From Ostreococcus lucimarinus (lineage: Eukaryota): a stretch of DNA of 64,000 nt. Position 1 is the first letter of the stretch. Each line of letters starts with the position of its first letter. The DNA is taken from assembly GCA_000092065.1 (NCBI GenBank), contig CP000581.1, one strand, 5' to 3'. Under the pieces are notes generated by a model that did no database searches, had not been told where the DNA came from, and worked only from the letters and a program-made list of their open reading frames with translations. Of this stretch, positions 3,757 through 64,000 are shown in pieces. Position numbers and translations under genes: made by a program.

Positions 3757-6700
3757 ATGTTCATCGCGCGGCGTCGGTCGTCGAACGAGGGCACCGTCCC
3801 GGGCGGAGCGGCGAACGCGGCGCCGTCGATCGTGCCCACGGGCGCGCGCGATGACGCGAGCGCGACGTCGCGCGCGGCAGAGCGGCGCGGTAGTGATCTC
3901 GCGTCGGGCGATGGTGGCGCGGAGCGGGCGGGAGGGACGAGCGGGACGGTGAACGCCGTCGTGGGATCGCAACCCGCGCGCGAACGCGCGGGCGCGACGT
4001 CGACGAGCGTGGCGAGGAAAAGGAGTTTCAATCGCTCGCGCACGGCGAAGGAGGACACGTTGAACGCGCTGCTCGAAAAACTGTGTGCGATCGATGTCGT
4101 GGATGAGGACTCGAGGGGATCGATGGAAGACGACGGGGCGCTGCGGGAACGCGTGGAGACGGAGGCGCGAAGCGCGAACCCGGCAGACTTTCTCAAGTTT
4201 AGAAACGCGGTACACGAACGTGTGGATACGATGATCACGGGCGAGGACGTAGCGAGAAAGCTCGGGGGACTGCGCGCGATTGATCAGCTCATCGAGGTGG
4301 AGTTTGGCGAGGAGGTCGAAAAGGTGAAGAAGTTTGCAGATTACTTGCTCGACGTCGTGAGCACGAGTGCGGAGGACTTGCTCGGATCGTCGTTGACGGA
4401 TGAACACAGAGAGCACCCTGTGGCGATTAATGATCCACTTTGGAGTAATGCGCGCGCGCGCGAACTCGTGGAGATGATGAGCCTGGTCTTAGGTCGATTG
4501 GTTTTGCACAGCGGGGCGTTGACGACTGAAATCGTCGACTCGCACGTGCAGCGTGCCATCGAGTTGTTGAACGCGGACGACGGGAATCAAGACGTGGTGA
4601 GCATGAAGCACTACGCCGCAGCTCTGACGCTGACCGAACTCGCGCGCAATGCGCCTACGATCTTCAACGTCCACGTACCAATTTTTATCTCGTCCATCTG
4701 GACCGCTTTGCGCGATCCATCTTTGAGAGTGCGCGAAGTCGCTGTCTTGGCGCTTCGCGAGTGTCTGATGGTGACGGAGCGCCGAGAGACGAGATATCGC
4801 GTGCAGTGGTACTACGCGTTGTACGAAGCCTGTCGAGCAGGATTGAAGCAAACTTCGAAAGTAGAAGAGATACACGGTTCATTGTTGGTGTTCGGCGAAT
4901 TACTGAGACACACTGGCGAGTTCATGTTGAGTCGCTATCGCGAAGTGGCGTTGACGATTTTGCGGCTTCAAGATTTTAAGAAGTCAATCATACGACGAAC
5001 GATCGTGAGTTTGATTCCCAAGTTAGCAGCATTTAGTCCACAGCGCTTCGCGGAGTCGTACCTGGTCGAGTCGTGTGCGTTGATCCTCACGACGATTCGC
5101 TCGCCGAACGATAGCGGCGCCGGCTTTCAAGCGCTCAGTCACCTCGCCGACGCAATGTCGTCAGTGATAGACGTTGATTCAGATGAAGTCACAGTTGGCA
5201 GCTCTTTACTGAGGTACTTGCCGGAAGTGAGTGCGGTAATGTACGACATGTTTACGTCTCGAGCAAGAGGACCGAACGCGTATCCAGAGGCGCTCGAGTG
5301 CGCCGGGGCTTTGATGAATTCGCTCCACTTAGCGTGGAAGCCGCATTTCGTAAACTTGTTGATGCCTATGTTCACCGCGGGGTTGTCCAAGTCGCTCGTC
5401 ATAGGGCTTGAATCTGCAGCCCAAGGTGCACCGGATCTGTTGCCGTCTATCCAATTGAAACTGGCAGACGCTATTGCGAGCGCGATTCATCAGGAACCGA
5501 CGACGGAGAAGAGCTGCCCGATGCCACCGAACAAAAAGATCGTGCAACTGGCGCTCAAAACGATGCGAACTTTCCCGTTCGAACCGACAGTGTTACTTCG
5601 ATCGATTCGCAAAAATGTCATTTGCTACCTGGACGATTCGTCAGCTGAGTCACGACTCGAAGCGGCGCTGACGTGTTGCAGCGCGTTGCGCCTCAGAGTG
5701 GGATCGAGCAAGAGCGTGACGACCGCGGTGGAGAACATCATGGAAGCGCTCATTCCAGTGGCGGTCGGCGACAACGATGCATCGATCAGAAATGCGCTGT
5801 TGACTGAATTTTGCAGGCCGAGCGCATCGATAGATTCGTACCTATCGCAGGCAAAATCTCTCAGGGCGTTGTTTTTGACAGTGAACGACGAGAGTGTTGC
5901 CATACGCATGTTAGGTATTGAGCTGCTTGGACGCTTGGCGACGAGGAATCCGGCGTACGTCCTTCCAGCACTACGTGTGCACATGCTGCAGCTTTTAGCT
6001 GAGCTCGAATATAGTAGCGAATCCCTGCATAGAGAGGAGAGTGCCAAGGTGATGGCGGTGATGATTCGCAGTTGTCCGCGGCTCGTCTCGCCGTATCTCT
6101 CCCCTATCTTGCGTTGCCTCATGTCTACGTTGAAGGCGGAAGAAGGCGGAGCGGCGAAGAGCTCGAAATCAAAACAAGACTCATCAGCACCGTCGAGCGC
6201 ATCTGTGGGAACTGCCGCGACCACGTTGCGACGAACATCATCATCCAAACAGACGTCGGCCATTGCGCCGTCGAAAAAACACGATATCACTGGCCGCGAA
6301 AAGGCAGCAGTACTTGGCACGATCGGCGAGCTTGCAAATGTTAGTGGATATGGCATCACGCCATTTGTTCAAGAGCTTCTCATTCTTCTATTGATAGCGC
6401 TGAAATCGGCAAGCACTCGCGACCATGCCGTCGTGACTCTCGGCAAGCTCATCGAGAGCTCGGGATACGTCGCTGAGCCGTTCACGACGCACCCGCAGCT
6501 TTTGCCACAGTTGCTCCGAATGCTGGCAAACGAACGCGGTATTGTCAGGAGCGAAGTACTGCGGACCCTGGGAATTCTTGGTGCGCTCGATCCGCATGCG
6601 CACAGAGGAAATGAAATTCGTTTGCACGGAGAGGGTGTACTAAGCGAAGAGGGCGTGCGCGGTGTGCGACAAGCGAGACTGAGTATGAAGATCGACGATG

Positions 6701-9700
6701 GCGCGACGGACAGCGCGCAGGTCGATGATTTAGGCAATAATGATGACGGTGACGAAGAGCTGGATATACTACCGATGCTTCATTTGACGTCGCTATCCGA
6801 TGACTATTACCCGACGATAGCGCTGAATTCGTTACTTCGTGTGCTGCGAGATCCTTCGCGCACGAGCGTTCGTCACATGGTGGTGCGAAGCATCGTGTAC
6901 ATTTTCCAAGTCCTCGACACGGCTTGTGTTCAATATTTACCTAGCGTCGTCCCAGTCATGCTGAGTGTGATTCGAACGAGTGATGATAGCCTGCGTGAAG
7001 GAATGTTTGTGGAGCTCGCTACTCTGGTGGGTGTCATCAAGGCACATATTCGCCGATACTTGTCGGACATCTTCGAGCTGATGAATATTGCATGGGATAG
7101 AAGCGGGATGTCCAAAAATACGCTGCTTTTGTGCGAAGAGCTTTCCGTCGCTTTGAACGACGAGTTCAGAAGGAGTTTACCCATGATTGTTCCTCGCATA
7201 GTTTCGTCGCTCGCAGAGGCTGAGCGCTTGCGCAGGTACGATTCAGTACCGTATATTCTTCACGCCTTGGAGACGTTCGGAACTTCGCTCAACGATCACC
7301 TCTACTTGATACTTCCGACGCTTGTGCGCATTTTTAAACCAAGCGTTTTGGATATGCCGCTTGACATCAAAAGAGGCGCTCTGCAGTCTCTGCGCAGACT
7401 GCTACCGCGCATGCGCTTGGCGGACCAGGCTGGGATTGTCGTTCACGCGTTGACGAGAGTATTGGACGTGGAGGACGTAGAGCTTCGTTTAGATGTACTA
7501 AACGTGCTCATATCGTTGGAGGTGTCTCTTGGGCGCGAATATGCGCTCTTCTTGCCCGTCGTAAAGCGTGCTGTTTCAAAGTGCGGCGTCAAGGATCCGG
7601 CGTTTGACGACATGGTCAAGCGAGTCGAAAGTGGTAATCCGCTACTCTTCGATGACCTTGAATCTGAATCGCTATTAATCGCGTCAGCCACGGAACATAG
7701 AAAACCTGTGCTTCAAAAGCATCTTTCAGTGAACCAACTTGCCGTTCGCCGCGCTTGGGAGAGCAGTCAGCGGTCTACCAAGGAAGATTGGCTAGAATGG
7801 ATGCGAAAACTTGCGTTGGATCTGTTGAAGAGCTCACCACTGCCGTCGCTACGAGCGTGCAGTGAGTTAGCGCAAGTGCAGCCGAATCTTGCTAGGGATC
7901 TATTTTGCGCTTCGTTTGTTTCGTGCTGGGCCGAGCTGAATGAAAGCCATCGAGAGATTCTAGTGCGCTCGCTGGAAGCCGCTCTCGGAAGCCCGACCAT
8001 TCCTCCTGAGATCGTCTCAGTTTTGCTCAATCTCTGCGAGTTCATGGAACACGATGAAAAGCCAATTCCAGTTGACGTGCGGACGTTGGGTATGATTGCT
8101 GAACGCTCCAGAGCTTACGCCAAAGCTTTGCACTACAAAGAACTTGAGTTCATAACGAACCCAGGTGCGTGCGTCGCAGCCATCATCGCCATCAACAACC
8201 AGTTGCAACTTCCCGAGGCGGCTCGAGGTGTGCTCGTGTACGCGCAAGAAAACTTGACGGTCGACATCAAAGAGTCGTGGTACGAGAAACTTGAACAATG
8301 GGACGATGCTTTGGAAGCGTATAAAAGAAAACTGGACGAGCTCGCCAGCGTGGATTCACCTCAAGCGATGGAAGAAAGACGTGAAGCGATGGTGGGGCAG
8401 CTTCGATGCTTGAACGCACTCGCGGAGTGGGAAGAAATTCAGAGAATCTACGAAGCTGGGAATCAAGCAAACGTCGATTGGGACGAGTATCGCAACGATG
8501 TTACTACGATTGCCGCGAAAGCTGCTTGGCATCTTGGAGATTGGGAGCAGATGGAGATTTGTACGAATCAACTTGATAGAGATCAAAATATCCGGGGTCG
8601 TCTCCCAAACGCCGACCGTGTCGATGCGATCGGCAAGCGTACGTCCAGCGTAGTGAACACTACTGATTGTGACTTTTACAAGTCCATTCTCGCCATCCGT
8701 CGAGGCGCACAGGACGAGGCGCGGGAGCATCTTGCCGCCGCGCGCGAGATGCTCGGCACGGAACTCGCGGCTCTCGTGAGAGAGTCTTACGACCGTTCTT
8801 ACGGAGCGCTCATACGAGCGCAACAGCTAACTGAGCTGGATGAAGTGATTGAATACGCGCAACTGACTGCGGTCGCTTCACCCGCGGCTGCGCGGCGACA
8901 AGAGATCATTCGAAAAATGTGGCGCGATCGAATCTACTTGGTCAAGCGTGACGTCGAGGTCTGGCAAGAGCTCTTGCAAGTTCGCTCATTGGTGTTGCCC
9001 ATGAGCGAAGAAACTGATATATGGCTTAAGTTTGCCTCTCTGAACCGCAAACAAGGGCGCGACCGTCAATCACGTCGAACGTTGTTGCGCCTCCTTGAGT
9101 ATGACCCAATCATGTGTGCCGAGGGCAAGCCAGGATTCGGCGCGGGTTCTGGGCGCCCTAAAGTCATGTTTGCGTTCGTGAAGCACTTGTGGCACACAGG
9201 ACAGAAAAGGCAAGCTTTTATGCGTCTTCAATCTCTCGCACACGAGTTGCGAGTGCAATTGGAAAACATGCGCGCTTCTGGTCAGACAGAGACGGATCAC
9301 AACAAGACGGTCTCGCGAGCTTTTCTCAAACTCGGCAAATGGCGCTGGGCGCTCACCGATAGTATGAACGATGAAACACTGACTGATGTGCTCATGGCGT
9401 TCAGAACCGCGACATCTGCGGACCAGCATTGGTCCAAGGCGTGGCATCACTGGGCATTGTTCAACGCCACGGCCATGGAACATTTCCATCGCCAAGGTGG
9501 TGCGTCAACAAAGGATGCGATGCAGCACGTCGCGCCAGCAATCAGTGGATTTTTCCGATCAATCTCTTTGGCAGGCTCATCCATGAAAGCCAAGGGTGGA
9601 TCACTGCAGGACATTCTACGCCTGCTCACACTTTGGTTCAATCACGGTGGCTCGCCCGAAGTCGAAACGGCCTTGATCGCTGGGTTTGGACACGTAAACA

Positions 9701-57257: not shown

Positions 57258-58362
57258 ATGCGCGCGCGCGTCGATGACATTTTACGCGCGCAGCCTACGT
57301 CGCAGAGTATCCCCGCCGAAGTCGTCGCGTACGAACTCAAGCGACTCATCCTCGAGGTGTGCCCCGCGCGCGACGATTCGCGTCCCGAGGCGCAAGACTG
57401 ACCATGTGACATAGCTCGACGAAAACGTCCACGACAGCGCGCGCTCGTCAACCTGGCCGTCCGTCCGTACATTTTTCGTCGACTCTCTGCAGTTGATCGA
57501 GTCGTCCGAGCCCGCGCGACGGGTCGCTGAAGCGTTGCGCGATTTGGAAGCGAGCTTTCTGATCACGTCTCAAAAACAGCAATGGCTCGACGGCGAACGC
57601 GAGGATTGGCTTGAGACCGTGCGCCTAGTTGCACGAGTGGTTGATCGACCGTTGATGACTTTTGGGTTACTGAGAGTGATTGGTTCTTTGCTGAACGATC
57701 TGGCGATGTCGCTGAAGGAGGGTTCGTTCGTGCCGGCGTTCACGCGCCCTCGGACAGCCGTCGATGCGACGAGGAAATCGTTGTGGCACGCTCGAGTGGA
57801 GGCGATCTTGATCAGTGGTATCGCGACCGACGAGCGCGACGCGCGCGTGCTCGAAGAGCGATACTTTAGCGACGTGTTGCGACTACGCGCGCCCGAGGCG
57901 AGCGAACAGCCGGTTTTGTTGAACGCCACGCGGTTCGTCGCGCCGATGCCTCGCGAAGAAACTCGAGTTCCCGCGGAGCGGGAACGCGAGCTCAGACTCG
58001 CGCAGTCGTACAACTTTTCTACGGATGTACTTATACGAAGACAGGAGACTCGACGGCGATGTGCGCCACGAAGGCTCATGATTAGCGATGAGGACGAAGA
58101 TGATCCTTACAGCGCCGTCGGCGGCGACGCGGAAGAGCTTGAAAGACTTCGCGGCGAGGTCGCTCGATTGCAAATCGAACGCGAGCAAGAGGTATTGTGC
58201 ACGATTTGCTACTCGAACAAGCGTGACACTGTCGTGTGTCCGTGCTTACACTTGATGTATTGCAGCGCGTGCATCGCGCGACTTCGAGACCAGGGAGGGA
58301 GCGAAGCGCGGTGTCCACATTGTCGATGCGCGATGACGGGGTTGTTGCAAATATTCTCGTGA
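57258..58362 (+). CDS. RING-type (C3HC4, C-terminal) E3 ubiquitin ligase. Main exon 57493..58362 (or from 57415); probable upstream exon 57258..57356
   Basis: C-terminal RING CTICYSNKRDTVVCPCLHLMYCSACIARLRDQGGSEARCPHCRC. The track ORF begins at a TTG directly after the acceptor-like catttttcgtcgactctctgcag. The in-frame region has no ATG for 54 codons. Upstream ORF MRARVDDILRAQPTSQSIPAEVVAYELKRLILE ends in GAG|GTGTGC. GACTGAC at ~57396 sits 12 nt before one possible acceptor (ATAG at 57414) and 95 nt before the CAG at 57492. Both acceptors keep the frame. Confidence 0.6.
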
Positions 58363-58421: not shown

Positions 58422-60299
58422 TTAGTCCGCGAGCACCTTACTAGACCAGCTGAGAGCGAGATTACGCGCGATGTTTGGCCCGTCGCCGACCGCGTTTTGC
58501 ACCAGCTTTTGGATATTGACCTCTCGTTGAAGCGTCGCAACGAGACGTGCGAGCTCGTCCACTTGTAAGCGATCGTCTTCCGTCAACGCGAGGAGCAGTT
58601 GCTGACGAAGTTTAGCGTCCGTAAGAAGTAACCCCGCGCCATCCGTGGCGGTTTCCGTCAAATCGAGGTTCCCGCCGCCGTCTCGCGCGAGATCGATCAA
58701 GTTTTCAAGGCGGCGCCATTGAAACTTGTCTTGCTTGAACAACACTTGAATCAAGCGCTCGCGAAGCGAAACGTCTCGGTCTGTCAATAACCGCTTGGCG
58801 ACGTACGGATACGCGACTTCGAGAAACTTGAAGTCCGGCTTCAACGTCATGCAAATCCCTTCTTGCGTCAACAGCGAGCGGATGACGAGCGAAAACCGCT
58901 CTGGGATGCGAATTGGGTACTGGTACACGAGCTTGTTGAAACTCGACGTCACGGTGCGAAAGTTGAAATTGGCTAACGATGCCGTGCGAGCGTCTTGCCA
59001 AATGTCTTGAAGCGCCGGAACAATGGGCCGCACGTCCGTGCCTGGGGTCAAGAAACCGAGACGAATGAAATCACCCGCCATGCTTTCGTAGTCCTCGTTC
59101 ACCGCGTGCACGACGGCGTCGATGAGCACCTCCTTATTCGTTTGCGTCAGCTGCGCGACGTTCCCAAAATCTACGTACGCGATGCGCCCGTCGCGCATCG
59201 CGAAAATATTACCCGGATGCGGGTCGCCGTGGAATAATCCAAACTCCAACAACTGTCTCAGCCCGCTCACGACGCCCACCTTGATGAACTCCTCGACGTC
59301 GATGCCGGCGTCGACGATGCCTTGCGGATCTGTGCATCGAACGCCATCGATCCATTCCATGGTCAAAATCTTCGACCCGGAGTACTCTTTGTAGTACTTT
59401 GGGATCTTCACGATGGGATCGTCCTTGAAATTGTCGTAAAAATCGCTCAAGTTGCGCCCCTCTTGCACGTAATCGAGTTCCTCCAAGAGCTTCTCGCCAA
59501 ACTCGTCCACGATGAGCTGGGCGTTGCAACCCAACGCGCGCACGGAGTAGCCGTTGATGAACCACGCCAGCGTGCGAAACAATAACAAGTCTCTGTAAAT
59601 GATGGGCTCGATCCCCGGCCGTTGCACCTTGATGGCGACTTCCTCGCCGCTCTCGCGAAGCGTCGCTCGGTACACCTGCCCGAGCGACGCCGCCGCGATC
59701 GGATCGCTCGAAATCACCGAGAACACCTCATCGATCGGTCGTCCGAGCTCGCTTCGAATGATATCAAACGCGGTCGCGTTATCGAACGGCGGCACGTCGT
59801 CTTGAAGCTTGCACAACTCCTCCATGTAATCGCTTCGCACGATATCCGGCCGGTTCGCCAACACCTGCCCCGCCTTGACGAACGACGGCCCCAACTTCGC
59901 CAACTGCACCCTCAGCTGCTCGCTTCGACTCACCACGCGTTCGGTTTCGTTCAACTTATCGTACAGCAACCCACTCGCGAACGCCGTGGCGTTGAACACG
60001 ATCTCCCCGCACCGCGCCGCCGTCCGCGCCGCTTCCCCCGGCCCTCGCATCGCGCGCTCTCTCACCACCGCCGGCGAGTACTTGGGCGCGATCGCGCACG
60101 CCCCGTTCTGCCCGTACAGTTCCTCCACGTCCCTCGCGTCCGGCTGCGCCACCGTCCCCGCGCTCGCCGTCGCGCCGTCGCCTCGCCGCCGCCTCTGGAT
60201 AAGCGCGCGCCGTCCCGTCGCGCCGCCCGTCGTCGCGCGCGTCGTCCCACCGCCGCGCGTCGCGCCGCGCGTCGTCGTCGTCATCATCGCCGTCGCCAT
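58422..60299 (-). CDS. ABC1/ADCK/UbiB-family atypical kinase (plastid ABC1K-like) with a Thr/Gly/Arg-rich transit peptide
   Basis: ABC1 domain: LGPSFVKAGQVLANRPDIV, AAASLGQVYRATL, EVAIKVQRPGIEP, HGDPHPGNIFAM, YVDFGNVAQL. The first ATG outside the Arg-rich junk of track ORF 58422..60971 is 60299..60297 (MATAMMTTTTRGATRGGG...). Confidence 0.85.
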   Translation of the reverse strand: MATAMMTTTTRGATRGGGTTRATTGGATGRRALIQRRRRGDGATASAGTVAQPDARDVEELYGQNGACAIAPKYSPAVVRERAMRGPGEAARTAARCGEIVFNATAFASGLLYDKLNETERVVSRSEQLRVQLAKLGPSFVKAGQVLANRPDIVRSDYMEELCKLQDDVPPFDNATAFDIIRSELGRPIDEVFSVISSDPIAAASLGQVYRATLRESGEEVAIKVQRPGIEPIIYRDLLLFRTLAWFINGYSVRALGCNAQLIVDEFGEKLLEELDYVQEGRNLSDFYDNFKDDPIVKIPKYYKEYSGSKILTMEWIDGVRCTDPQGIVDAGIDVEEFIKVGVVSGLRQLLEFGLFHGDPHPGNIFAMRDGRIAYVDFGNVAQLTQTNKEVLIDAVVHAVNEDYESMAGDFIRLGFLTPGTDVRPIVPALQDIWQDARTASLANFNFRTVTSSFNKLVYQYPIRIPERFSLVIRSLLTQEGICMTLKPDFKFLEVAYPYVAKRLLTDRDVSLRERLIQVLFKQDKFQWRRLENLIDLARDGGGNLDLTETATDGAGLLLTDAKLRQQLLLALTEDDRLQVDELARLVATLQREVNIQKLVQNAVGDGPNIARNLALSWSSKVLAD

Positions 60300-60588
60300 C
60301 GCGCGCGTCGCGTCGCGCTCCAACGCCCTCGCGCGCGTCGCGCGCGCCGTCGTGTGCGGACGCGCCGTGACGTCGACGCGCCCGCGCGCGCGCGGCGATT
60401 CGATTCGTCGCCGCCGACGCCGACGCGACGCGTTTTCGCGCGTTTTCGCGCGCGCGCCGAATCGCGAAAATTTCGTCGCGTCGCGTCGCGTCGCGCGCGC
60501 CGCGTTCGCGACGACGCCGCGCGCGCGATGCGTCGGCGCGAACGCGCGCGTCAGACGGCGACGCGGCGATTCGATTCGATTCGCGTCG

Positions 60589-61179
60589 ATGCGCGCGCTC
60601 GTCGCGGCGGCGCTCGTCGCGGCGCTCGTCGCGCTCGCGGCGGCGCGCGGCGTCGCGAGCGCCGCGCCGCCGGCGACGATCGCGGCGTCGCGGGACGCGA
60701 TGGATTCGCTGCCGCGCGACGACGACGACGCCGCGCGACGACGGTTGCGATGCAACGCGTGCGCGGCGGCGTGCGACGCGCTCGTGCGCGATCTCGCGCG
60801 GGAGCGCGCGCGGAGGGGCGGGACGCTGACGCGCGCGCTTGCGGACGCGACGATGGAGGCGACGTGCGCGCGCGCGGGGGAAGAGCTCGGGTTGACGATG
60901 CGCGACGGGCGGGTCACGGAGACGTTCGCGGAGGACGACGGGACGGCGCGAGCGAGAGGGCGATGGATCACGGTGTACGCGCGGGAGGCGTGCGCGAGGC
61001 TGATCGATGGAGAACACGACGATGCGTTGATGACGTTCGGGAAGCGGGACGACGGCGGGGCGCGAATGGAGGCGAGGGAGGCGCTGTGTCACGCGAGAAC
61101 GGGGACGTGCGAGAGCGCGTCGGCGGCGCGCGCCGCGAACGAGTTGGAGGCGCGGGATCGGCGGGATCGCGAGCTTTAG
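60589..61179 (+). CDS. Hypothetical small secreted/ER Cys-rich protein ending in -DREL (possible ER-retention variant). Its Cys pattern and C-terminal retention-like signal are faintly reminiscent of MANF/ARMET
   Basis: The C-terminal 196 aa of track ORF 59875..61179: signal peptide MRALVAAALVAALVALAAARGVASA, 7 Cys (CNACAAAC, TCARAG, ACARL, CHARTGTCE), ends ...EARDRRDREL. The upstream part of the track ORF is antisense of ABC1K. Confidence 0.45.
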   Translation: MRALVAAALVAALVALAAARGVASAAPPATIAASRDAMDSLPRDDDDAARRRLRCNACAAACDALVRDLARERARRGGTLTRALADATMEATCARAGEELGLTMRDGRVTETFAEDDGTARARGRWITVYAREACARLIDGEHDDALMTFGKRDDGGARMEAREALCHARTGTCESASAARAANELEARDRRDREL

Positions 61180-61228
61180 CGAAGTAGTGTGGTGTGCATG
61201 CATCACGTGTATATTTCTAACGCTAGTA

Positions 61229-64000
61229 CTAGGAAATCGTGTGTTGCGTAGACGGATCCTCGTAGTCGCGGCTCGGTAAGACGCGAGGCGCCGGAATCGG
61301 CGAATCGTCCCACACTCGCGATCGTGATCGTAAAGGCACCAAGTCGTCCGATCGGTGCGTGTCTTGCGCGTTGTCGTCGTCCGTGCCCAATGAGATCATG
61401 GAATTGGACGTGAGTTGCGTGCGCGGATCTTCACCGATTGGGTTGTCCGCATCTTCGGCCACCGTGGGCTGTCGGGGTAGTTGCAACGACAAGCGACGAT
61501 TCGGCGAACGCGACGTCGCGTTCGCGACGCCAGACTCGATGTCGAACTCGATCGATCGTCGATCAGAGTCGATCGATCGTCGCGGCATCGTCGACTTTTG
61601 AGCGTTCAATCGGTTGTCTGGGCCGATGAAAATGGAGCGTTGTCGCGAAACCTTGTTCGACAAGCCTCGTAAAAATTCCCTCTTCTTTTGCGCCCTGAGC
61701 GAAGTTCTCGATTTACCAGAGGTCGGCGATTGCAAGAGCTTGTCGGTCGGGATGACGTAAATGAGCAAATCATTGACGCTCTCAAACGTGCAGTAACCAT
61801 CCCTGTCGGGCTCCACGGGAAGTGATTCAGATGCGGATTCGTCCACGGACATCTTCGCCGCGAGCGCGGCGAGATTTTGAGACGAGCCGCGCACGAGACC
61901 ATTTTTCCCGAATTTCAACGCCGACAAGCGCGACTCAAGCTTACTCTCAAGCGCGCTCGAAGCCGACGTTGTTGCGTTGGATAGCATGCCCGTCCGTTTG
62001 AAAGTCACGACGCACGGCGCTGGGATGTTGCCGCACGTATTGTTGTACAGAGATCCACGAAGCAAAATCACCACTTGTCTGTCGTCGTGCTCGAGTTTTG
62101 ATCCTTGCGAAATTTTCACGAGTTTACCCGCGCGTACGAGTTTATTCACGGGAAGATCCGGTAAGACGCTATCTAGTTCGCTGCGCAACACGGTCTCCGC
62201 CAACAAACCGAGCACCACTCGCCACATAAACTCGAGCGTTTCCGCCTCACGAAGATCGCCGCGTAGGCTGTCCAAAAGTGAGCGCGGAAGGACGAAACCA
62301 AACATAGTCGTCTGCGCCGTCGCACGAATACCACTACGATTTGGTTCTTCTTCATTCGCGTCATTTGCCAGCGCTTCGTACAAGGCCAAAGCCCACGCGT
62401 GCGGATGCGACTTACAGCCTGCCGTAATTTGTTGCGTCGCATCCGCCGCAGACTCGATGAGTACGACGCCGTTGCCGACAAGCATAATTCCGTCGTTCAA
62501 CTTGACATTGGGGTCGATGATGATGTCACCCACGTTAAACTCTACAACTTCTGCTTCTCGAAGGAAGTGTTTACGAATCTCTCGCGACTTGATGCCCACG
62601 CGTTGCGTGAAATCAAAGAGCGGAATCGCAGCGAGGATGCGGCCAGGTGACGTACGCGATGGTGGGAGCGGATGCATAATCAGCCTTTGAAGGTAGAGGT
62701 CGTGCTCGGCCTGTAACATTGATCCTTCCGATTCGTCCAGCAATCCCGTATGCGTCAAGAGTTTTGTTTCTTCCATCGTCACCTCCAGAATTTCACGCGC
62801 GAGTGCCTCGGATCTCAGCGAACGCGCCACAGCGTTGTGAGCGTGCTGCATCTCTTTCAGCATTTCAACGGCTTGGACGACCTCGGTATCCGACTCGAAG
62901 AGAACATCTCGCACATGATGTGACTTGATGGACGTTTCGTTTGCTAGATTTTCGCCGACACCAGCCTTTGTGAGTGTATAACTCTTTGCCAGCTCGGCGA
63001 CTTCCGATTGCGCTTCCTCCTTGGCTTGCTCTTCCTCTTCGTTTTTGCCTAGTAAAGATTTGAATTGCTCTGAAGTCAAGCGATGGGCACTAATTAGGGC
63101 ATGTAAACCTTGCATTTGACGTCTCGTGCCCATCCAGCCTTCTTCGACGAGCCTGAGGTAACGCAAGGTTTTGATGATTCGCATACCCCACGCTCGACGT
63201 TCAAACGCCTTGACGACGGCGCTCTTCACGCGGCTCTGCTTCATGAAGCGGTTGAACTCGTCGAACGTACACAATACGTTCGATTTTGACTTATCAGTTG
63301 CTCGCTCGCAGGCGATAAGCAACCCGTGAGCAACTTTTGCGTCAATCAAGTCGTCTTCAAGCATCGACCAGACTTCTTTACAGAGCCCGGCCAAGAAACG
63401 ATCACGCATCTCGTGCATGAGCTGAGCGTCCATTTTCGCGATCTCGTGCTTGAACTCGATTTCCGTTTCGTCTGTTTGTGTGCGAAGGAATGGCACGAGC
63501 TGCTTAACCGCCGTGAAGTCGGGCGCGCCGAGATACTGCGCACCAGTTTGGTCCAGCTTTTCGTCGTAGTGCGCGAGCGCGCGCTCGTGAATGGCTTTGC
63601 GAGCAGCCAATAACGTTCGGTCGTGACTAAGCCCGGGCGTAAGCAGGCCGACAATGCGAAGCATAGCTGCCGCAGAAGATGCATTGATTAACAGCGTCCC
63701 AATCACTGCGGCGGAAACCATTACGAGCGTCAATCCACGCTCTCGCTTTGTGAAATGCGCATCATCCTCCAACACGACGAGCGCGAGCGCCAAACCGACA
63801 GCGCCACGTAGACCGCTCCAAATGGCTATAAAGGTCTCACGCATGCTTAAGACGTGTCCTTTGTAGTAGTTCATCCACGGAAACAGCATCGCCGTGACGA
63901 CAAAACGAATTATGTTGAGGCACAAGTAGAGGAGAATACCCCACCCCAGGTCGCTGGCTTTGATGTCCAGTTCGCCGAGCAAAATATCTGCGACGATCAG
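61229..64000 (-). CDS. Na+/H+ exchanger (CPA1/NHE) C-terminal TM region fused to a long cytosolic tail containing a cyclic-nucleotide-binding-like domain. Partial: the 5' end lies beyond the window
   Basis: N-terminal part of the visible ORF (MLGELDIKASDLGWGILLYLCLNIIRFVVTAMLFPWMNYYKGHVLSMRETFIAIWSGLRGAVGLALALVV) matches the last NHE TM helices. The tail contains a cNMP-binding-like beta-roll (FLREAEVVEFNVGDIIIDPNVKLNDGIMLVGNGVVLIES...) and Ser-rich regulatory stretches. The ORF is open to the window end. Confidence 0.7.
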   Translation of the reverse strand: MIVADILLGELDIKASDLGWGILLYLCLNIIRFVVTAMLFPWMNYYKGHVLSMRETFIAIWSGLRGAVGLALALVVLEDDAHFTKRERGLTLVMVSAAVIGTLLINASSAAAMLRIVGLLTPGLSHDRTLLAARKAIHERALAHYDEKLDQTGAQYLGAPDFTAVKQLVPFLRTQTDETEIEFKHEIAKMDAQLMHEMRDRFLAGLCKEVWSMLEDDLIDAKVAHGLLIACERATDKSKSNVLCTFDEFNRFMKQSRVKSAVVKAFERRAWGMRIIKTLRYLRLVEEGWMGTRRQMQGLHALISAHRLTSEQFKSLLGKNEEEEQAKEEAQSEVAELAKSYTLTKAGVGENLANETSIKSHHVRDVLFESDTEVVQAVEMLKEMQHAHNAVARSLRSEALAREILEVTMEETKLLTHTGLLDESEGSMLQAEHDLYLQRLIMHPLPPSRTSPGRILAAIPLFDFTQRVGIKSREIRKHFLREAEVVEFNVGDIIIDPNVKLNDGIMLVGNGVVLIESAADATQQITAGCKSHPHAWALALYEALANDANEEEPNRSGIRATAQTTMFGFVLPRSLLDSLRGDLREAETLEFMWRVVLGLLAETVLRSELDSVLPDLPVNKLVRAGKLVKISQGSKLEHDDRQVVILLRGSLYNNTCGNIPAPCVVTFKRTGMLSNATTSASSALESKLESRLSALKFGKNGLVRGSSQNLAALAAKMSVDESASESLPVEPDRDGYCTFESVNDLLIYVIPTDKLLQSPTSGKSRTSLRAQKKREFLRGLSNKVSRQRSIFIGPDNRLNAQKSTMPRRSIDSDRRSIEFDIESGVANATSRSPNRRLSLQLPRQPTVAEDADNPIGEDPRTQLTSNSMISLGTDDDNAQDTHRSDDLVPLRSRSRVWDDSPIPAPRVLPSRDYEDPSTQHTIS

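What the first reader, a model, noticed from the sequence alone, without database searches (positions are those of the whole stretch)
61229..64000. Na+/H+ exchanger with a cyclic-nucleotide-binding-like cytosolic tail (partial gene at window edge)
The visible ORF starts inside the last NHE transmembrane helices (FIAIWSGLRGAVGLALALVV). It continues into an ~850-aa tail that includes a cNMP-binding-like beta-roll. CNBD-bearing NHEs are rare, with the sperm-specific SLC9C type as the known example. In a flagellate alga such an exchanger could couple cAMP/cGMP to pH or Na+ control.
Basis: partly seen in the sequence, partly recalled or inferred. Interest (0 to 1): 0.5.

Follow-up and report, generated by a model that had tools for sequence, protein, structure and literature searches.

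The report
Algal SOS1-type sodium/proton antiporter gene
The window ends inside an ordinary green-alga copy of the plant salt-tolerance transporter SOS1, whose long tail has the shape of a cyclic-nucleotide-binding domain but probably does not bind cyclic nucleotides.

Summary
On the minus strand, 61229-64000 is one open frame of 923 codons that runs off the window edge. It begins at the end of TM10, includes TM11-13 of a CPA1 Na+/H+ exchanger, and continues into a cytosolic tail of about 800 aa. A metagenome contig 99.8% identical in DNA supplies the missing 324 N-terminal residues. The full protein is 1247 aa, intronless, with PF00999 at E=9e-53.

The family profile matches rice and Arabidopsis SOS1 best (E=2.5e-177). 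The match is colinear through the transport domain, helical domain, CNBD-like domain and beta-CTD. Sea-urchin SLC9C1 comes second (about 1e-129).

Pfam PF00027 does not detect the tail. However, a confident AlphaFold model (pLDDT 85, pTM 0.81) hits the SLC9C1, SOS1, MloK1, HCN2 and CRP cyclic-nucleotide-binding domains. A profile-profile comparison with canonical CNBDs gives 96% probability.

There is no voltage sensor. The phosphate-binding cassette is non-canonical: a 4-9 residue acidic insert, and Ser at the canonical Arg column with a conserved Arg one residue before it.

The named orthologues are from Ostreococcus (59% identity) and Bathycoccus (39%), which are non-flagellate picoalgae. 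SOS1 homologues in green algae are already described. Verdict: a new member of a known kind, of low interest.

The parts
61229..64000 (-). 3' part of the coding sequence: residues 325-1247 of a 1247-aa SOS1-type Na+/H+ antiporter plus the TAG stop (61229-61231). The 5' 972 nt lie beyond the window edge.
   Evidence: The full gene is on contig L001 at 4828-8571, which is 99.8% identical in DNA to window 60591-64000. There are 3 aa differences.
63641..63943 (-). TM11, TM12 and TM13 of the CPA1 transport domain. TM11 Arg (fragment R32) aligns with SpSLC9C1 R399. TM12 carries the GLRGAVGLALAL motif.
   Evidence: Hydropathy, motif positions, alignments to SOS1 and SLC9C1, weak NCBIfam CPA1 hits.
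62666..63640 (-). Cytosolic alpha-helical domain (alpha-CTD, or 'coupling helices'), fragment residues 121-445. It contains a low-confidence acidic linker at 63002-63049.
   Evidence: All-helical in the AF2 model. Aligns with SOS1 residues about 450-585 and 620-720.
62165..62665 (-). [quoted passage not shown]
   Evidence: AF2 pLDDT 84.9, pTM 0.81. Foldseek hits to the CNBDs of SLC9C1, OsSOS1, MloK1, HCN2 and CRP/GlxR. hhalign 95.9% against canonical CNBDs. PF00027 is not detected.
62315..62401 (-). Non-canonical phosphate-binding-cassette region HAWALALYEALANDANEEEPNRSGIRATA. Glu (fragment E542) is retained. There is a variable acidic insert and a conserved R-S-G (R555 at nt 62336-62338) just before strand beta7.
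   Evidence: Compared with AtSOS1 E813/Y820 as described in PMC10372031.
61994..62143 (-). beta-CTD, a second small beta domain after the CNBD-like domain, fragment residues 620-669.
   Evidence: Six strands in the model. Foldseek alignments of 225-240 columns with SLC9C1 and OsSOS1 span it. HMM alignment to OsSOS1.
61232..61993 (-). Low-complexity, predicted-disordered C-terminal tail with conserved islands: LKFGKNGLVRGSSQNL (61871-61918), RSPNRRLS (61481-61510), EDPRTQLTS (61406-61432), VWDDSPIP (61292-61315) and the C-terminal YEDPSTQHTIS (61232-61264).
   Evidence: Conservation across 10 homologues. Low pLDDT at the start of the tail. No sequence similarity to any solved chain, including the SOS1 tail.

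Best explanation
This is the 3' three-quarters of the gene for the SOS1/NHX7-type (NhaP-like, CPA1) Na+/H+ antiporter of a Mamiellales picoalga, most likely an Ostreococcus. By homology it is a homodimeric 13-TM exchanger that uses the proton gradient to extrude Na+. Its activity would be set by a large cytosolic platform (helical domain, CNBD-like domain, beta-CTD) and by a long disordered C-terminal tail. I infer that the CNBD-like domain works as in plant SOS1: as a structural and regulatory module that locks or releases the transport domain, not as a cAMP/cGMP sensor. I also infer that regulation runs through phosphorylation of the conserved Ser/Thr-rich tail motifs, plausibly by the single CBL-CIPK pair these algae possess. 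Shown: the ORF, family membership, domain architecture, CNBD-like fold, absence of a voltage sensor, and conservation. Inferred: plasma-membrane location, Na+ extrusion, autoinhibition, kinase control, and lack of cNMP binding.
For: 1. PF00999 at E=9e-53 on the full-length protein. The transport-site residues D164, N192-D193, R356 and R389 are invariant across 13 homologues.
2. The family profile hits OsSOS1 8iwo at E=2.5e-177 and AtSOS1 7y3e at 4e-173. Each hit has two colinear stretches covering profile positions 30-602 and 689-1185. SLC9C1 scores about 1e-129 and NHE1 1e-21.
3. The CNBD plus beta-CTD model is confident. It matches the CNBD-like domain and beta-CTD of OsSOS1 at TMq 0.59, the highest query-normalised TM-score in the list, and SLC9C1 at 0.5-0.56.
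4. There is no hydrophobic segment after TM13: the maximum 19-residue Kyte-Doolittle hydropathy average is 1.25.
5. PF00027 is undetected. The PBC has a 4-9 residue insert of variable length. It has the L-Y-E arrangement of SOS1, in which E813 occupies the phosphate site.
6. The orthologue is transcribed in cultured Ostreococcus: an MMETSP transcript, 59% identical and colinear end to end.
7. Ostreococcus and Bathycoccus each have one CBL and one CIPK, and the algal CIPK clade includes SOS2/CIPK24 (PMC4030171).
8. SOS1 homologues with this architecture are already reported in green algae (PMC7573149; PMC3355601).
Against: No functional data exist for this protein. The post-beta-CTD tail has no detectable sequence similarity to the SOS1 autoinhibitory C-loop, C-helix or DSPS site, so autoinhibition and CIPK control are extrapolated. 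A conserved Arg (R879 in full-length numbering) next to the canonical PBC Arg column, plus the retained Glu, leaves ligand binding open. Land-plant SOS1 has Tyr at the Arg position. Membrane localisation is not testable here.
Confidence: 0.8

Rival explanations
1. A genuinely cyclic-nucleotide-regulated Na+/H+ exchanger: a voltage-sensor-less counterpart of sperm SLC9C1, in which cAMP or cGMP binding to the tail domain loosens the cytosolic platform and tunes exchange.
For: The CNBD fold is established. Glu866 and the R879-S880-G881 motif just before strand beta7 are at least 90% conserved in the family. An Arg in this loop recurs in other algal and protist SOS1-like proteins, whereas land plants have Tyr. 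SLC9C1, which does bind cAMP (PMC10620091), is a clear homologue of the whole tail.
Against: PF00027 is missed in the fragment, the full protein and 12 of 13 family members. Alignments anchored on beta7 put Ser880, not Arg879, in the canonical Arg column. The helix-to-beta7 loop carries an acidic insert of variable length (4-9 residues). The canonical Gly before the Glu is replaced by Tyr or Phe, as in SOS1, where the Glu fills the phosphate site and cNMP binding is considered impossible. The closest relative overall is SOS1, not SLC9C1.
Confidence: 0.12
2. An orthologue of the flagellar/sperm SLC9C family (NHE plus voltage-sensing domain plus CNBD), serving flagellar pH signalling.
For: Significant sequence and fold similarity to SpSLC9C1 in both the transport domain and the tail.
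Against: There are no S1-S4 helices: no hydrophobic segment after TM13. There is no PF00520 hit, whereas true SLC9C-like relatives P0078 and P0125 show PF00520 plus PF00027. The helical domain is continuous with SOS1. The named orthologues come from Ostreococcus and Bathycoccus, which lack flagella (my own knowledge). VSD-bearing sNHE has been found only in Metazoa (PMC6660944).
Confidence: 0.02
3. An SOS1-like exchanger that has been repurposed, for example to an endomembrane or chloroplast-envelope location or to K+/H+ or Li+/H+ exchange. Its tail would be regulated by something other than CBL-CIPK, through its own conserved motifs (DPxTQxT repeats, WDDSP, KFGKNGLVRxSS).
For: The tail beyond the beta-CTD shares nothing detectable with the SOS1 tail but has its own strongly conserved islands. 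The N-terminal 30 residues are Ala/Ser-rich. AtNHX8/SOS1B shows that selectivity can differ within the clade (PMC7573149).
Against: The transport-site residues and the whole structured cytosolic platform are conserved with SOS1. A marine cell has a constant need for plasma-membrane Na+ extrusion (general knowledge).
Confidence: 0.06

Closest known systems
Plant SOS1 / NHX7 (Arabidopsis 7y3e and 8jd9; rice 8iwo and 8j2m)
   Same: Same order of parts: 13-TM CPA1 transport domain, helical alpha-CTD, CNBD-like domain, beta-CTD, long flexible C-tail. It is the best sequence match (E=2.5e-177, colinear) and has the highest query-normalised TM-score for the CNBD plus beta-CTD model. The PBC has the same Y-E arrangement. 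PF00027 is weak or absent. There is no voltage sensor.
   Different: Identity in the tail is low: 15-18% in the Foldseek alignments of the predicted model to the SOS1 structures. The PBC loop is 4-9 residues longer and carries a conserved R-S-G where land plants have P-Y-[IL]-C. The C-terminal tail shows no detectable similarity to the SOS1 C-loop, C-helix or DSPS region and has its own motifs. The protein is about 100 aa longer.
Sperm-specific Na+/H+ exchanger SLC9C1 (sea urchin; 8pcz, 8otq, 8u6z and others)
   Same: Homologous transport domain, coupling helices, CNBD and beta-CTD. The TM11 Arg corresponds to R399.
   Different: SLC9C1 has an S1-S4 voltage-sensing domain inserted among the coupling helices and a canonical cAMP-binding PBC (R1053). 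The window protein has neither. SLC9C1 is metazoan (PMC6660944).
Shorter NhaP-type exchangers fused to a canonical CNBD (for example P0021 at 846 aa and P0025 at 831 aa: PF00999 plus PF00027)
   Same: An NHE transport domain followed by a CNBD.
   Different: These have a PF00027 domain above threshold (up to E=7e-23). They are 400 aa shorter, and only the transport domain matched in the sequence search (about 16-20% query coverage). hhalign of the CNBD-like profile against P0021 alone was insignificant.

Membership tests
CPA1 Na+/H+ exchanger (Pfam PF00999) | Na_H_Exchanger domain above the gathering score | tested here: met
   P0001, the full-length version of the window ORF, scores 179.9 bits against a cut-off of 26.2, over residues 47-437. 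The window fragment alone holds only TM11-13 and gives just weak NCBIfam CPA1 hits.
CPA1 Na+/H+ exchanger (Pfam PF00999) | Conserved transport-site residues (TM5 T-D, TM6 N-D, TM11 Arg, TM12 G-L-R-G) | tested here: met
   D164, N192, D193, R356 and R389 are invariant in the 13-sequence alignment. R356 and R389 lie inside the window (fragment R32 and R65). R32 aligns with SpSLC9C1 R399.
SOS1 / NHX7 (plant NhaP-type exchanger with a regulatory tail) | Colinear architecture: transport domain, alpha-CTD, CNBD-like domain, beta-CTD | tested here: met
   Two colinear HMM stretches cover OsSOS1 residues 7-583 and 620-1123. The models show the helical domain, the beta-roll with flanking helices, and a second beta domain. 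The Foldseek hit to 8iwo has TMq 0.59.
SOS1 / NHX7 (plant NhaP-type exchanger with a regulatory tail) | SOS1 is a closer relative than any other characterised NHE | tested here: met
   595 bits for OsSOS1, 438 for SLC9C1 and 80 for NHE1. No explicit phylogeny was built.
SOS1 / NHX7 (plant NhaP-type exchanger with a regulatory tail) | C-terminal autoinhibitory segments (C-loop, C-helix) and the SOS2 (CIPK24) phosphorylation site | tested here: inconclusive
   A profile of the post-beta-CTD tail finds no solved chain at E<=10. A conserved WDDSP near the C-terminus resembles what I recall as the plant SOS2 target site, a DSPS motif near the C-terminus; this is from memory and was not checked here. 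A single CBL-CIPK pair exists in Ostreococcus and Bathycoccus.
SOS1 / NHX7 (plant NhaP-type exchanger with a regulatory tail) | Plasma-membrane Na+/H+ exchange that confers Na+ tolerance | not testable with these tools
   Needs yeast complementation, vesicle transport assays and localisation.
SLC9C (sperm-specific NHE) | S1-S4 voltage-sensing domain (PF00520) between the transport domain and the CNBD | tested here: not met
   No PF00520 hit. There is no hydrophobic segment after TM13: the maximum 19-residue Kyte-Doolittle hydropathy average is 1.25. Positive controls P0078 and P0125 show PF00520.
SLC9C (sperm-specific NHE) | Canonical cNMP-binding CNBD (PF00027, PBC with Arg) | tested here: not met
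   There is no PF00027 hit. Ser sits at the canonical Arg column in beta7-anchored alignments.
Cyclic-nucleotide-binding domain superfamily (fold level) | Eight-stranded beta-roll flanked by helices A and B/C, with a short helix in the PBC position | tested here: met
   The secondary-structure order in the pLDDT-85 model fits this. Foldseek gives 219 hits at E<=0.001; the listed top 50 are mostly CNBD-containing proteins, including the isolated SLC9C1 CNBD 9ydf (TMt 0.68) and MloK1 (0.59). hhalign gives 95.9%, E=6.5e-9, against PF00027-positive CNBDs.
Cyclic-nucleotide-binding domain superfamily (ligand-binding competence) | PBC signature G-E-x-[AG]-L ... R-[ST]-A with canonical spacing | tested here: inconclusive
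   Glu is retained, but it is preceded by Tyr or Phe rather than Gly. The spacing is lengthened by 4-9 residues. R-S-G is conserved, but the Arg falls one column before the canonical Arg.

The most novel reading that the evidence does not exclude
Prasinophyte SOS1-type exchangers, unlike land-plant SOS1, may keep a ligand-competent CNBD. The evidence is the conserved Glu866 and Arg879-Ser-Gly at the pocket entrance, shared with several other algal and protist homologues. If so, this protein would be a cAMP/cGMP-modulated (or otherwise small-ligand-modulated) Na+/H+ exchanger without a voltage sensor: a living intermediate between SOS1 and sperm SLC9C1.
Probability: 0.12. Interest if true: 0.55.

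Novelty: new member of a known kind. Interest (0 to 1): 0.2.

Why it matters
As it stands, this is a routine annotation improvement. Public records call these proteins only 'NhaP-type Na+/H+ or K+/H+ antiporter' or 'Cation/H+ exchanger transmembrane domain-containing protein'. They are in fact full-architecture SOS1 orthologues of abundant marine picoalgae.

The result shows that the SOS1 cytosolic platform (helical domain, CNBD-like domain, beta-CTD) predates land plants and is shared with animal SLC9C1. The one point of wider interest is the conserved Arg-Ser-Gly in the binding-cassette loop. If that pocket still binds a ligand, it would bear on when SOS1 lost, or SLC9C kept, cyclic-nucleotide control. 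It would also offer a simple VSD-free system for studying CNBD-to-transporter coupling.

Tried and rejected
- Pfam and NCBIfam on the fragment gave no Pfam family and only weak CPA1 hits. The transport domain is mostly outside the window, and this was solved by recovering the full-length protein.
- PF00027 was sought at permissive thresholds on the CNBD segment of all 13 family members. Only one weak match appeared, at E=0.014.
- hhalign of the CNBD profile against single canonical sequences was uninformative: P0021 at probability 0.2% and P0125 at 20%. It became significant only against an alignment of six PF00027-positive CNBDs.
- The word-indexed homology search with the tail alignment returned only the same close relatives. 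The exhaustive representative search was needed to see the wider family.
- The AFDB50 fold library was unavailable, so no UniProt-named structural neighbours were obtained.
- A profile of the post-beta-CTD tail found nothing in the PDB, so homology of the autoinhibitory tail to SOS1 could not be shown.
- I first read R879 as the retained canonical PBC arginine, from its position three residues before beta7 in the model. Alignments anchored on beta7 place it one column earlier, so I downgraded that claim.
- The voltage-sensor hypothesis was rejected.
- The neighbouring genes are an ABC1 kinase, a RING finger protein and a 196-aa secreted-looking ORF. They show no functional link.
Full report
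**Observation**

The region 61229-64000 contains a single long open frame on the minus strand. It has 923 codons with no stop, a TAG stop at 61229-61231, and it is still open at the window edge.

A 19-residue Kyte-Doolittle hydropathy scan finds hydrophobic segments only in residues 17-117. These are three transmembrane helices at nt 63641-63943. After residue 130 the maximum score is 1.25. The description is therefore correct: the last helices of a membrane domain followed by a very long soluble tail.

**Recovering the rest of the gene**

A protein search returned a 1247-aa protein (P0001) that covers the fragment completely and differs from it at three residues. It is encoded on a 9.2-kb metagenome contig (L001). 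That contig is 99.8% identical in DNA to window 60591-64000 and continues 5.8 kb beyond the window edge. On it the gene is one uninterrupted ORF (L001 4828-8571). The window therefore holds residues 325-1247.

The full protein has a Na_H_Exchanger domain (PF00999) at residues 47-437 with E=9e-53. The fragment alone gives no Pfam family and only weak NCBIfam CPA1 hits, because it keeps only TM11-13.

Thirteen homologues of 32-95% identity over the full-length alignment align end to end. The transport-site residues D164, N192, D193, R356 and R389 are invariant. The 90%-identity cluster has 224 members from marine metagenomes. This is a real, conserved gene.

**Which exchanger it is**

A profile of the 13 sequences was searched against all solved structures. 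It matches rice SOS1 (8iwo, E=2.5e-177, 595 bits) and Arabidopsis SOS1/NHX7 (7y3e, 4e-173) best. Each match has two colinear stretches that together cover the transport domain, the helical cytosolic domain, the CNBD-like domain and the beta-CTD.

Sea-urchin SLC9C1 follows at about 1e-129 (438 bits). NHE1 is far behind at 1e-21. The fragment alone gives the same ranking.

An exhaustive HMM search with the tail only found 235 clusters (at 50% identity) with E<=1e-3 among 1.84 billion representatives. Eight full-length examples scanned with Pfam show three domain patterns. Some are SOS1-like: NHE only, or NHE with a sub-threshold PF00027 match. One is NHE with a PF00027 match above threshold and no voltage sensor (P0049). 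Two are SLC9C-like: NHE, Ion_trans voltage sensor and PF00027 (P0078, P0125). The window protein belongs to the SOS1-like pattern.

**Is there a cyclic-nucleotide-binding fold?**

Pfam PF00027 does not detect one. It finds nothing in the fragment or the full-length protein, and nothing in 12 of the 13 family members scanned as isolated domains. Stronger methods show that the fold is there:

- An AlphaFold2 model of fragment residues 446-680, built with the family alignment, has mean pLDDT 84.9 and pTM 0.81. It shows an N-terminal helix, an eight-stranded beta-roll with a short helix between strands 6 and 7, three C-terminal helices, and then a second six-stranded beta domain.
- Foldseek against the PDB returns 219 hits at E<=0.001. 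The top hits are SLC9C1 (TMq 0.5-0.56 over about 230 columns), the isolated SLC9C1 CNBD (9ydf, TMt 0.68), the MloK1, HCN2, CNG, GlxR and CRP CNBDs, and OsSOS1 (TMq 0.59).
- A profile-profile comparison with an alignment of six PF00027-positive CNBDs taken from other NHE-CNBD proteins gives 95.9% probability, E=6.5e-9, over 160 columns.
- The larger tail model (pLDDT 70) is all-helical upstream of this domain. It also finds SLC9C1 and SOS1 first.

**Is it likely to bind cAMP or cGMP?**

The AtSOS1 structure paper reports that its CNBD-like domain cannot bind nucleotide. The conserved PBC arginine is replaced by Y820, and the E813 side chain occupies the phosphate site (PMC10372031).

In the window protein the corresponding stretch is HAWALALYEALANDANEEEPNRSGIRATA. 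The Glu is retained but is preceded by Tyr, as in SOS1, rather than by the canonical Gly. The loop between the short helix and strand beta7 carries an acidic insert whose length varies by 4-9 residues among close homologues. It is followed by an R-S-G motif that is at least 90% conserved.

An Arg in this loop recurs in several other algal and protist SOS1-like proteins, whereas land-plant sequences have K-P-Y-[ILV]-C-D. I first took this Arg (R879 in full-length numbering, fragment R555) for the canonical one. However, the HMMER alignment to OsSOS1 and the hhalign alignment to canonical CNBDs are both anchored on the invariant Ala of beta7. Both put Ser880 in the canonical Arg column and Arg879 one position earlier. 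Model coordinates could not be inspected.

My reading is that nucleotide binding is unlikely (about 0.12) but not excluded.

**No voltage sensor, and probably no flagellum**

There is no PF00520 hit and no hydrophobic segment between TM13 and the CNBD-like domain. The region aligns continuously with the SOS1 helical domain.

Cluster look-ups show that the 59%-identical orthologue cluster contains a UniRef entry from Ostreococcus, derived from an MMETSP transcript marked complete and colinear with the window protein to the last residue. The 39%-identical cluster contains Bathycoccus prasinos proteins. The window therefore comes from a Mamiellales picoalga, most likely an Ostreococcus. To my own knowledge that genus lacks flagella, so the flagellar-signalling speculation has no support.

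The literature already treats SOS1 as the VSD-less homologue of sNHE, and reports VSD-bearing forms only in Metazoa (PMC6660944).

**How it most likely works**

This section is inference by homology, drawing on PMC10372031 and PMC10620091. The protein would be a homodimeric 13-TM elevator-type exchanger that extrudes Na+ against the inward proton gradient. Its core domain would be restrained by the cytosolic platform of helical domain, CNBD-like domain and beta-CTD, and regulation would be delivered through the flexible C-terminal tail.

The tail beyond the beta-CTD is low-complexity, and its start is modelled with low confidence. It contains strongly conserved islands: LKFGKNGLVRxSSQNL, C-x-FE-x3-D-x-LLYVIP, KK-x2-FL-x2-L, RSPxRRLS, one to three copies of D-P-x-T-Q-x-T, WDDSP, and the C-terminal EDPSTQHTIS.

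This tail has no detectable similarity to any solved chain, including the SOS1 C-loop and C-helix. Autoinhibition and CIPK control are therefore extrapolations. They are made plausible by the single CBL-CIPK pair in Ostreococcus lucimarinus and Bathycoccus, whose CIPK falls in the clade that contains SOS2/CIPK24 (PMC4030171).

**Comparison with what is known, and novelty**

SOS1/NhaP-clade exchangers are documented in single-celled green algae, and the NHE plus CNBD combination is stated to have arisen in algae (PMC3355601; PMC7573149). What is added here is modest:

- These Mamiellales proteins, annotated only as generic NhaP-type antiporters, carry the complete SOS1 cytosolic architecture.
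- Their CNBD-like domain is too divergent for Pfam.
- Their binding-cassette loop differs from that of land plants.
- Their regulatory tail is lineage-specific.

This is a new member of a known kind. Interest is 0.2. The most novel reading still open is a ligand-competent CNBD in a VSD-less relative of SLC9C1, with probability of about 0.12.

Noticed in passing
window 60589-61179 (+) versus 61229-64000 (-); whole window: Adjacent convergent genes differ sharply in base composition. The SOS1-like CDS has GC 54% and GC3 62%. The neighbouring 196-aa ORF has GC 75% and GC3 90%. At 2-kb scale the whole window alternates between about 53-56% and 64-68% GC.
   Followed up: partly
window 60589-61179 (+): A 196-aa ORF with a signal-peptide-like N-terminus (MRALVAAALVAALVALAAARGVASA), several Cys residues and a C-terminal ...RDREL. 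It has no Pfam family. Its stop lies only about 50 nt from the stop of the SOS1-like gene (convergent 3' ends).
   Followed up: partly
window about 60165-60700: A very GC-rich spacer made of degenerate short tandem repeats (CGTCG, CGCGTTTTCG, and 12-48-nt units). It creates spurious long Arg/Ala-rich ORFs on both strands, including an artificial N-terminal extension of the ABC1 kinase ORF.
   Followed up: partly
window 58422-60971 (-) and 57493-58362 (+): The upstream neighbours are an ABC1 atypical kinase (PF03109, E=1.4e-70, domain at residues 388-632 of the listed ORF) and a C3HC4 RING-finger protein. There is no evident functional link to the exchanger.
   Followed up: partly
window 61232-61432 (-); homologues P0010, P0014, P0029, P0030: The C-terminal tails carry repeated short linear motifs that differ by lineage. 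This clade has D-P-x-T-Q-x-T, two to four copies including the extreme C-terminus. The high-GC homologues P0014, P0029 and P0030 have [DE]-T-F-P-P-R in three to five copies. Their function is unknown.
   Followed up: no
cluster of P0012: NCBI record MDA9787438.1 is labelled 'sodium:proton antiporter [bacterium]', yet it sits in the same 90%-identity cluster as Bathycoccus prasinos proteins. It looks like a eukaryotic contig binned into a bacterial MAG.
   Followed up: no
L001 1623-4547 (+), beyond the window edge: The gene upstream of the exchanger on the extending contig encodes an importin-beta family protein of the CSE1/CAS type (PF03810, PF08506, PF03378).
   Followed up: no
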